Shown here: positions 4,012 to 49,161 of the stretch, piece by piece
How the letters are laid out: each line of letters begins with the position of its first letter
Position numbering within the stretch: the first letter of the stretch is position 1
From: Eledone cirrhosa
Lineage: Eukaryota
NCBI GenBank assembly: GCA_964016885.1
Contig: OZ024762.1
Span: forward strand, 22,320,001-22,384,000
Reading direction: 5' to 3'
DNA length: 64,000 nt
Translations under genes and position numbers: made by a program
Notes under the pieces: generated by a model
Told to the model about the DNA's origin: nothing
Seen by the model: the letters and a program-made list of their open reading frames with translations, nothing else
Databases searched by the model: none

Positions 4012-4051
4012 GCCCTTGAGAAGCCCAACTGGGCGAAACGTACGTAGGTGC
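4012..4051 (+). ncRNA. Hammerhead motif with U3-A8 variant core
   Basis: CC-TTGAGAA-GCCC(aact)GGGC-GAAAC-GTAC-GTA-GG: palindromic loop III, GUA site, short stem I. Confidence 0.55.
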
Positions 4052-9789: not shown

Positions 9790-10348
9790 TCGTTTCTGAA
9801 TTTGTTTAGCAAGATTCTTTATCTGAAATCGTGTGTTGAAACCGATATTGTTATACTTTGGGAGGGTCATGTTGCCAATAAGAAACACACGCACCAGTTG
9901 CTTTCACTTCAATTTATTATAATAAATTTATAAATTTCTGGTTGGTTGGTTGGTTCCACAACCAGATAGTTGTTTATATATTGTCATAGTTCTTTCGTCA
10001 CACACTCTGTGACCTCTTCAGTGACTGGGGATTCCTTTCTTTGTTTCTGTGCCTCTCCTTTGTTCTGTCCTACGCCATTTTGTTTCTGAGACACACAGAA
10101 ACAAAATGGCGTAGGACAGAACAAAGGAGAGGCACAGAAACAAAGAAAGGAATCCCCAGTCACTGAAAAGGTCACAGTGTGTGACGAAAGAACTATGACA
10201 ATATATAAACAACTATCTGGTTGTGGAACCAACCAACCAACCAGAAATTTATAAATTTATTATAAATTTATTAGAATAAATTGAAGTGAAAGCAACTGGT
10301 GCGTGTGTTTCTTATTGGCAACATGACCCTCCCAAAGCATAACAATAT
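9790..10348. mobile_element. Family A palindrome: arms of about 245-250 bp, 7-nt loop, one hammerhead per arm
   Basis: 9845-10088 is the reverse complement of 10096-10348; hammerheads at 9983-10025(-) and 10159-10199(+, core mutated to CTGAAAA). Confidence 0.85.
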
Positions 10349-48332: not shown

Positions 48333-48577
48333 AGTAATAATAATAAATGTGAAGACTAAAATCCAAAGAGGGCTCGATAAGGATAAATATATAACAAATA
48401 TATAAGAACCGTAGAGCAAAATCTACTAAAATAACAGATTAAAGTTTAAGTAAAGAATCGGTGCTTTCACCCTTAACGGGATCTTGTGCGTTCACAGATT
48501 GATTGTTTTAGTTTCAGAAGATCCCATTAAGGGTGAAAACAGCGATTCTTTGCTTAAACTTTAATCTGTTATTTTAA
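48333..48577. mobile_element. Family B inverted pair with a hammerhead-like motif at 48510-48560
   Basis: 48430-48485 is inverted relative to 48518-48575; related copies at 9671-9780, 58770-58955(-) and 60355-60622(+). Confidence 0.65.
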
Positions 48578-48629: not shown

Positions 48630-48632
<3 letters not shown>

Positions 48633-49096
48633 CGAAGGAAATGTGGTAAGGAACCAGGTGGACCATAACGCACCAAAGTACTCAATACTTAGGGTAGTAG
48701 AGTGGGTAACAGGTACAAGTAAGACCCCGACGGCTGAGCTCAAGCCGTTTCGACGGCTAATTCTGGACTGAATGAAAATTTATTCTGGTATTTAAATAGC
48801 CGAGCTTATCAAGGGGTAATTCCATATATGGTCAAAGAGATAATCACCAGGATTGGTCACATCACAAGTTAGTAGTAAATCTGTGATGGCAAATTGGTGG
48901 GGGAAGGGGTAGCTAAACCTGCCGGTCGGAGAACTACTAACTTGTGATGTGACCAATCCTGGTGATTATCTCTTTGACCATATATGGAATTACCCTTGAT
49001 AAGCTCGGCTATTTAAATACAAGAATGAATTTTCATTCAGTCCTGATTTAGCCGTCGAAACGGCTTGAGCTCAGCCGTCGGGGTCTTACTTGTTCC

Positions 49097-49098
<2 letters not shown>
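48630..49098. mobile_element. Family C palindrome (arms of about 165 bp) with two complete hammerheads
   Basis: 48712-48876 is inverted relative to 48933-49097; hammerheads at 48724-48817(-) and 48992-49084(+). Confidence 0.85.
48992..49084 (+). ncRNA. Type I hammerhead with 6-bp stem III, GUC site and U3-A8 core
   Basis: ACCC-TTGATAA-Gct-CGGCTA...GAATGAA(tt)TTCATTC...TAGCCG-tC-GAA-ACGGCT(TGAGCTC)AGCCGT-C-GGGGT; predicted cut after 49079. Confidence 0.7.

Positions 49099-49161
<63 letters not shown>

What the first reader, a model, noticed from the sequence alone, without database searches (positions are those of the whole stretch)
48724..49084. Non-minimal hammerhead with U3-A8 core, long stem II and a palindromic stem-loop III in the most abundant family
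Seen in both arms: ACCC(C)-TTGATAA-G..CGGCTA-[about 37 nt, with a GAATGAA/TTCATTC hairpin in the right arm]-TAGCCG.C-GAAA-CGGCT-TGAGCTC-AGCCG-TC-GGGGT. Known: positions 3 and 8 pair in the active hammerhead, so U3-A8 is a compensatory change, and GUC is the preferred site. Inference: CTGANGA-based searches would miss it. Unlike typical minimal PLE motifs it could fold as a monomer, while the near-palindromic stem-loop III still permits dimers. A second U3-A8 family is at 4012.
Basis: partly seen in the sequence, partly recalled or inferred. Interest (0 to 1): 0.75.

Follow-up and report, generated by a model that had tools for sequence, protein, structure and literature searches.

The report
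Penelope hammerhead with cut-site scars
This is an unusually large version of a known self-cutting RNA motif at the end of an animal jumping gene, and many of the gene's shortest genomic copies begin exactly at the predicted cut site, which likely means the motif does cut in the living animal.

Summary
The motif is real in both arms. It is the type I hammerhead in the terminal repeat (pLTR) of a Hydra-like Penelope retroelement, here a 468-bp two-armed remnant in (TA)n. U3-A8 is already published for Penelope hammerheads (PMC4209133), so the headline is not new; the 5-6-bp stem III and 37-nt loop II exceed the published sets I saw. Corrections: the GAATGAA hairpin is not the family state; position 3 is not fixed (5,070 U3-A8 against 1,559 mismatched C3.A8 copies, which form an amplified coding lineage); the monomer fold competes with a slightly more stable decoy, whereas the predicted dimer is a double hammerhead. 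New evidence for activity: among 50 sampled mini-insertions, 38 of 52 unambiguous arm starts fall on the first base after GUC, mostly with untemplated filler. Most other copies stop inside loop II and hold half a ribozyme. Cleavage was not assayed and no RNA data were available. The scan noted this hammerhead type, the loop II stop and similar scars before, on other DNA of this genome. Verdict: new variant of a known kind, useful as genomic evidence on an open question.

The parts
48630..48933 (-). Left arm: 5'-truncated pLTR copy of a Hydra-like Penelope element, ending at the long 3' end (48630, with the 81-nt tail)
   Evidence: 96-98% identical to the pLTR of full elements L031/L032
48933..49097 (+). 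Right arm: inverted, shorter pLTR copy ending at the short 3' end (49097)
   Evidence: long+short pairing seen in 41 of 50 two-armed mini-insertions, 9 unclassified
48724..48817 (-). Complete type I hammerhead, left arm; predicted cut between 48729 and 48728
   Evidence: sequence, folds, arm-start pile-up at the homologous site
48806..48812 (-). Catalytic core U3 U4 G5 A6 U7 A8 A9
48754..48802 (-). Stem II: 6-bp helix closing a 37-nt A/U-rich loop with a weak, variable inner hairpin
48766..48771 (-). TCAGTC inside loop II, resembling an initiator element (consensus recalled, not tested); centre of the zone where most copies stop
   Evidence: 23 of 83 arm starts at ref 161-163 = 48770-48768; 38 of 83 at ref 159-166
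48730..48748 (-). Stem-loop III with the self-complementary GAGCTC; dimer interface
   Evidence: cofold; second junction hotspot at the palindrome centre
48993..49084 (+). Second hammerhead copy, right arm, stem I shortened by one C; predicted cut 49079/49080
48630..48710 (-). One-sided tail between the short and long 3' ends
   Evidence: 3' ends fixed at ref 220 and 301; tail concept from PMC11167929, PMC8557442
48578..48629 (.). (TA)n target tract, left
49098..49161 (.). (TA)n target tract, right
4012..4051 (+). Unrelated minimal-type U3-A8 hammerhead with a short palindromic stem III; multicopy

Best explanation
This is the type I hammerhead in the terminal repeat of a Hydra-like Penelope retroelement, and it likely cuts a minority of the element's RNAs after GUC, probably mostly by pairing two copies through the palindromic stem-loop III. 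Shown: the motif lies sense to an RT plus GIY-YIG ORF, about 100 nt upstream of it and again one unit (3.5 kb) downstream; the shortest two-armed copies begin one base after GUC far more often than at neighbouring bases. Inferred: those copies are cDNA run-offs from an RNA whose 5' end was made by the ribozyme; most copies come from uncut RNA that starts or stalls inside loop II; the monomer is split between the active fold and a decoy hairpin that buries GAAA, while two copies fold into a double hammerhead; strong catalysis is not needed for spread, since C3.A8 lineages amplified too.
For: Element identity and orientation. Core pattern: N7 free, A8 nearly fixed (62 G8 matches against 6,629 A8 matches), G12-A15.1 and U16.1 constant in the 27 copies tabulated, GAAAC being the anchor. 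Cut-site scars: first 50 of 1,023 two-armed mini-insertions; 38 of 52 unambiguous arm starts at ref 197-207 are at 203, none at 200-202; 22 of 50 insertions have at least one arm there and 16 both, mostly with 1-6 untemplated letters. One copy has about 30 untemplated letters, nearly all A, inserted exactly at the site (L275); one has ORF-internal sequence joined to that base in both arms (L270). Folding: dimer minimum 13.3 kcal/mol below two monomers with both cores free; the full double hammerhead was the minimum in 20 of 33 intact variants. U3-A8 cores are reported active in vitro (PMC3088659 section 8).
Against: No cleavage assay and no RNA reads. The scar count includes 3 perfect palindromic junctions that I assigned to 203/203 (32 of 46 without them), leaves out 42 arms with microhomology, and arms of one insertion are not independent. 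Such copies are rare: none of 17 fragments in 400 kb of random DNA started there. No covariation above shuffles and the RNAalifold consensus is the decoy, not the hammerhead. 1,559 copies carry a C3.A8 mismatch. In Anolis Poseidon, hammerhead mutants did not affect insertion in vitro and no reads ended at the cut site (PMC11167929). Clade assignment rests on motifs, not on a tree; the unit is longer than the '<3 kb' typical of Hydra.
Confidence: 0.68

Rival explanations
1. The ribozyme is nearly dead; the pile-up after GUC is a reverse-transcriptase stall at the base of stem III or at the end of the G run, and the motif is kept as a structure, promoter or dimer signal.
For: C3.A8 copies form a supported clade (99/96) and carry RT-EN frames up to 550 codons; the decoy is the consensus fold and U3-to-C improves it; hammerhead cleavage was dispensable in vitro for Anolis Poseidon; metazoan PLE hammerheads cut poorly in vitro.
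Against: A stall at stem III should include the unpaired C17 (ref 202), where 0 unambiguous arms start; untemplated filler, the A-rich insert and the ORF-to-site joint fit a real RNA end; G8 and other core changes did not amplify.
Confidence: 0.17
2. One reading: the long stem III makes an efficient stand-alone monomer ribozyme and dimerisation is incidental.
For: Stems II and III form in 36-38% of the left-arm ensemble and the gap to the minimum is only 1.6 kcal/mol; median gap 1.4 and minimum 0 among 33 intact variants; large-helix-III PLE hammerheads of fungi cut as monomers; tertiary contacts are not in the energy model.
Against: The decoy hairpin dominates in 17 of 33 intact variants and the fully formed monomer is about 4-6% of the ensemble; the loop palindrome is kept across subfamilies while the pair that closes it is not.
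Confidence: 0.12
3. Chance resemblance of repeat sequence to a hammerhead.
For: No Rfam hit; overall fold z-score only -1.8.
Against: 0 of 20,000 shuffles give the motif; it sits where Hydra-clade elements carry their hammerhead; junctions mark the predicted cut.
Confidence: 0.02

Closest known systems
U3-A8 minimal hammerheads of Cercyon Penelope-like elements, Schistosoma mansoni (Cervera and de la Pena 2014, PMC4209133; main text parts 1-3 of 4 and supplement parts 1-2 of 3 read)
   Same: Type I topology in the pLTR, U3-A8 core, short stem I, larger than usual helix II, palindromic helix III region, pairs on opposite strands 100-700 bp apart, proposed dimer
   Different: Here stem III has 5-6 bp with a 7-9-nt loop and loop II has 37 nt; no unpaired base between A9 and G10.1 but a 2x1 internal loop after the first pair; none of the motifs listed in Fig. 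S3 has a helix III or loop II of this size
Hydra clade of C-terminal EN+ Penelope-like elements (Craig et al. 2021, PMC8557442; section 11, passages and supplement part 2 read)
   Same: C-terminal GIY-YIG, DKT, CxCx5C linker, CxxC and CxH around the E and N residues, (TA)n target, sense hammerhead near the 3' end, inverted 5'-truncated copy and one-sided tail
   Different: All 26 Hydra rows of File S2 have CTGANGA cores, stem III of at most 4 bp with 1-3-nt loops and loop II of at most 9 nt; here RWR replaces RWK, the unit is 3.5-3.6 kb and the tail is 81 nt
Large-helix-III PLE hammerheads of fungi and protists (PMC4209133)
   Same: Type I PLE hammerhead with a stem III long enough for a monomer
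   Different: Those are in endonuclease-less telomeric elements and one was shown to cut as a monomer; this one is metazoan, EN+, and has a palindromic loop and a competing decoy fold
Poseidon of Anolis carolinensis, PAc (Frangieh et al. 2024, PMC11167929; part 1 of 4 and passages read)
   Same: Two internal reverse-transcription starts downstream of the hammerhead that give a long and a short end
   Different: In PAc no reads ended at the cut site and cleavage was not needed in vitro; here genomic copies do start at the predicted cut
Natural U3-A8 core covariation (Perreault et al. 2011, PMC3088659; section 8 read)
   Same: Same core swap, reported active
   Different: That section does not list an amplified C3.A8 mismatch

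Membership tests
Type I hammerhead ribozyme | Core boxes YUGANRA, GAAA and NUH in type I order | tested here: met
   U3-A8 variant
Type I hammerhead ribozyme | Three helices can close around the core | tested here: met
   5, 6(+1) and 6 bp; constrained fold 1.6 kcal/mol above the minimum, dimer fold at the minimum
Type I hammerhead ribozyme | Watson-Crick pair between positions 3 and 8 | tested here: inconclusive
   met in the window copies and 5,070 genome matches; broken in 1,559 C3.A8 matches
Type I hammerhead ribozyme | Covariation in the helices | tested here: inconclusive
   20 copies, no excess over shuffles; helices almost invariant
Type I hammerhead ribozyme | Site-specific self-cleavage after NUH | not testable with these tools
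   indirect only: arm starts pile up one base after GUC
Type I hammerhead ribozyme | Loop I - loop II tertiary contact | not tested
   no candidate contact was sought
Minimal PLE hammerhead (min-HHR) | Helix III absent or 1-2 bp | tested here: not met
   5-6 bp
Minimal PLE hammerhead (min-HHR) | Palindromic helix III / loop 3 | tested here: met
   GAGCTC kept in 25 of 27 copies at its one variable base; dimer fold
Hydra clade PLE | RT followed by C-terminal GIY-YIG endonuclease in one reading direction | tested here: met
   L031, L032 frames; Pfam gave no hit, so the domains are read from motifs
Hydra clade PLE | DKT, RWK, CxCx5C, CxxC and CxH motifs | tested here: met
   all seen, with RWR for RWK; definitions
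Hydra clade PLE | (TA)n insertion, inverted truncated copy, tail | tested here: met
Hydra clade PLE | Placement in the Hydra clade of an RT tree | not tested
   no reference proteins were aligned
Non-LTR retrozyme | Non-coding head-to-tail units each with a hammerhead | tested here: not met
   the unit codes for RT and EN and the locus is an inverted pair

The most novel reading that the evidence does not exclude
A two-mode ribozyme: the element's RNA starts inside loop II, so its 5' end holds only the substrate half of the hammerhead; the one complete ribozyme, in the 3' pLTR, cuts that half-site through the long palindromic stem III and can cut its own site as a monomer, giving a unit-length RNA that can be circularised and copied; C3.A8 lineages spread by being cut by U3-A8 partners. 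The half plus full pair folds into an active core on the half's GUC, and the genome records both the start zone and the cut.
Probability: 0.25. Interest if true: 0.75.

Novelty: new variant of a known kind. Interest (0 to 1): 0.5.

Why it matters
The role of hammerheads in endonuclease-bearing Penelope elements is stated to be unclear (PMC8557442), and the one in vitro study found cleavage dispensable and no cut ends in RNA-seq (PMC11167929). Here the genome itself holds a base-precise record of the predicted cut, in a coding family with about 1,000 two-armed mini-copies to count, and natural U3-A8 and C3.A8 sister lineages as an internal control. That makes the questions 'do these ribozymes cut in vivo, as monomer or dimer, and is cut RNA a template' directly testable. 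The U3-A8 swap itself adds little.

Tried and rejected
Rfam: whole-window scan swamped by microsatellite hits; local scan no hammerhead. The repeat finder was swamped by (TA)n. Pfam found nothing in three ORF pieces. Sequencing runs: no RNA holder listed; contigs of four runs were laid but they cannot show ends or levels, two may be the source sample and two hold only low-depth pieces, so they were not used. One search had a register error in the constrained monomer (it gave a false 13 kcal/mol gap); discarded and redone, where 16 of 71 distinct copies could not be parsed and were left out. The position labels printed are shifted by one; the position numbers are right. Control for the scar at ref 196 (321 matches) was not neutral: 12 of 15 loci were junctions at the loop palindrome, so a position profile was made instead. 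In the one-armed pattern (1,153 matches) 14 of 30 loci were an extra G in the G run, and of 16 scored as junctions one was misclassified and two were ambiguous. A generic U3-A8 pattern was barely above its control (3,455 against 2,572); of 20 hand-picked hits only some look like hammerheads. Fewer scars in the tail type linked to C3.A8 (3 of 14 against 17 of 31, Fisher p = 0.054): suggestive only, and the link of tail type to core comes from a biased sample. The tree kept 49 of 92 rows; rows with non-homologous upstream DNA were dropped, including the deeper subfamilies. A likeness of the 2+6+1 loop III to the HIV-1 kissing loop is recalled, was not tested, and the loop flanks differ. Naiad was rejected because the endonuclease is C-terminal. 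Lunse et al. 2017 on dimeric PLE hammerheads and the 2007 paper on 3-8 pair exchanges were not held; they may describe longer stems III, C3.A8 activity or other variants. Literature searches returned no paper, judged by listing and the passages read, on PLE copies starting at the cut site or on a natural C3.A8 core; the library lacks most subscription journals, and bioRxiv supplements were closed.

Full report
Observation. The two arms of an inverted repeat at 48630-49097 each hold the motif described. In hammerhead numbering the left arm reads: stem I of 5 bp, core U3 U4 G5 A6 U7 A8 A9, G10.1-C11.1, a 2x1 internal loop, a 6-bp helix closing a 37-nt loop, GAAA, stem III of 6 bp with a 7-nt loop holding the palindrome GAGCTC, then GUC and stem I. 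The right arm lost one C of stem I and differs at 5 other places. None of 20,000 shuffles gave such a motif. Rfam does not detect it. Below, 'ref' numbers count along the element sense from window 48930 (ref 1); the core starts at ref 119 and the cut follows ref 202.

What it belongs to. The right arm found 1,471 first-look candidates in the 3.0-Gb genome, the 40 scored being 96-100% identical. Longer copies show the motif sense to an ORF, about 100 nt upstream of it and again 3,500-3,603 nt further on. The ORF has a reverse transcriptase followed by a GIY-YIG endonuclease, with RWR, DKT, CxCx5C, CxxC and CxH motifs, which match the description of the Hydra clade of Penelope-like elements, as does the (TA)n target (PMC8557442 section 11). 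No tree against reference proteins was made. The window locus is a 5'-truncated two-armed remnant with one long and one short 3' end, the usual inverted copy with a one-sided tail. A transcript through this locus would fold its arms together, so this copy is probably silent as a ribozyme.

The core. In the window's subfamily U3-A8 is fixed: 369 exact matches against 0 for C3-G8. Across sister subfamilies N7 is T, G, A or C (7,004 non-T matches), as expected for the free core position. A8 is nearly fixed (62 G8 matches, 12 of them C3-G8), but position 3 is not: 5,070 U3-A8 against 1,559 C3.A8 with equal patterns. In a tree built without the core, 6 of 7 C3.A8 rows form one clade (support 99/96; 49 of 92 rows kept), and of 11 C3.A8 loci examined 10 held RT or EN sequence, with open frames up to 550 codons and C3.A8 in both arms. 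So a mismatched core was inherited and amplified. U3-A8 itself is published: about 1,300 hits in Schistosoma Cercyon elements (PMC4209133), natural and active per PMC3088659.

Folding. The predicted monomer minimum is a decoy in which the 3' strand of stem II pairs with the 5' strand of stem III and buries GAAA; the hammerhead fold lies 1.6 kcal/mol higher in the left arm and 3.6 in the right. Among 33 intact variants the median gap is 1.4, the decoy dominates in 17, and the minimum of two copies is a full double hammerhead in 20; for the left arm the dimer is 13.3 kcal/mol below two monomers. An alignment of 20 copies gave 90% paired cells but no covariation above shuffles, and its consensus fold is the decoy. 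The GAATGAA hairpin is in 3 of 39 TTGATAA copies; other subfamilies can form a different weak hairpin there. The monomer claim is therefore possible, not preferred; energy models omit the tertiary core, so this is not decisive.

Where copies begin. The stem III half matches 60,509 times, the core half about 6,600 times, so roughly nine in ten copies hold half a ribozyme. Of 65 arms picked by stem III, 54 start at ref 150-172 and 2 reach the core; a finer count puts 23 of 83 at ref 161-163, in a TCAGTC that resembles an initiator (consensus recalled).

Scars at the cut. A pattern for two-armed mini-insertions gave 1,023 sites; the first 50 were fetched and measured. Of 100 arms, 42 had microhomology at the joint, mostly at the loop palindrome, and were set aside. 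Of the 52 remaining starts at ref 197-207, 38 fall at 203, the first base after GUC, 5 at 204, 4 at 205 and none at 200-202. Six of the 38 come from three perfect palindromic joints that I assigned to 203. Per insertion, 22 of 50 have an arm there and 16 have both, usually with 1-6 untemplated letters between. L275 carries about 30 untemplated letters, nearly all A, exactly between GUC and the next base; L270 joins ORF sequence from about 945 nt downstream to that base in both arms. The simplest reading is that RNA with a 5' end at the cut was reverse transcribed. The rival is an RT stall at the foot of stem III; it should leave starts at 202 as well. These copies are few: extrapolated, some 450 insertions, and 0 of 17 fragments in 400 kb of random DNA.

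Mechanism. Shown: anatomy, counts, junction positions. Inferred: the RNA likely starts in loop II of the upstream pLTR; reverse transcription starts at two fixed points 18 and 99 nt behind the cut site (as for Anolis Poseidon, PMC11167929) and runs to the RNA's 5' end, giving the common half-ribozyme copies from uncut RNA and the rare mini-copies from cut RNA. A 5' half-site lacks the core and needs a partner; the half and a full copy fold into an active core on the half's GUC, 14.9 kcal/mol below the two apart. This would give the long palindromic stem III a purpose. It is a model, not a result.

Comparison. Same kind as the PLE hammerheads of PMC4209133 and PMC8557442. Different in size: the motifs listed in Fig. 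S3 of the first and the 26 Hydra rows in File S2 of the second have short helices III and loops II of under 10 nt, and all Hydra rows have CTGANGA. I could not read Lunse et al. 2017, known to me only through a review's passage (PMC6765202). The preprint 10.64898/2026.07.22.740005 was read in part 1 of 5 only and was not used for a claim.

Verdict. A real, new variant of a known ribozyme in a known kind of element. The value lies in the cut-site scars and the amplified C3.A8 lineage, which bear on whether and how Penelope hammerheads work in vivo. Earlier scan notes on this genome report the same hammerhead type and, in other families, similar scars; those were not used as support. Interest 0.5.

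Noticed in passing
G000, pattern; L124-L134: 1,559 copies with a C3.A8 mismatched core; a supported clade with coding sequence, possibly more than one origin
   Followed up: partly
window 48765-48774 and homologous sites genome-wide: Most family copies stop inside loop II and keep only the GAAA / stem III / GUC half; both arms of an insertion usually stop within a few bases of each other
   Followed up: partly
L289-L338: Second junction hotspot at the centre of the loop III palindrome, in about a third of the two-armed mini-insertions
   Followed up: partly
L275:1-501: About 30 untemplated letters, nearly all A, inserted exactly at the predicted cut site, as if the 5' product was tailed and rejoined
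   Followed up: no
L270:1-1301: ORF-internal sequence joined to the first base after the cut in both arms; fits a circle of about 945 nt or a template jump; ORF piece closest to a C3.A8 locus (94.8% against 93.4%)
   Followed up: partly
window 29, 7062, 10021, 26782, 26905, 36939, 43238, 45097, 45414: Several other type I hammerhead families with C3-G8 cores and short palindromic stems III; one at 10163 has C3.A8 as a lone variant
   Followed up: no
L164:6638-7750: Three hammerheads 528 bp apart, a retrozyme-like tandem array
   Followed up: no
L104, L106, L109, L110: Further U3-A8 hammerhead families with self-complementary stem III (CAATTG type)
   Followed up: no
L045, L082, L084, L085, L089-L091, L096, L100, L102, L103: Copies with a U3.G8 wobble core that share diagnostic loop II letters, perhaps a small subfamily
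   Followed up: no
L033:635-2091: A second, diverged Hydra-like ORF next to a family copy
   Followed up: no
window 48365-48577: Another inverted-repeat remnant in (TA)n just left of the finding, of a different family
   Followed up: no
window 10042-10142: Perfect inverted repeat beside the hammerhead at 10021; gives spurious microRNA hits in Rfam
   Followed up: no
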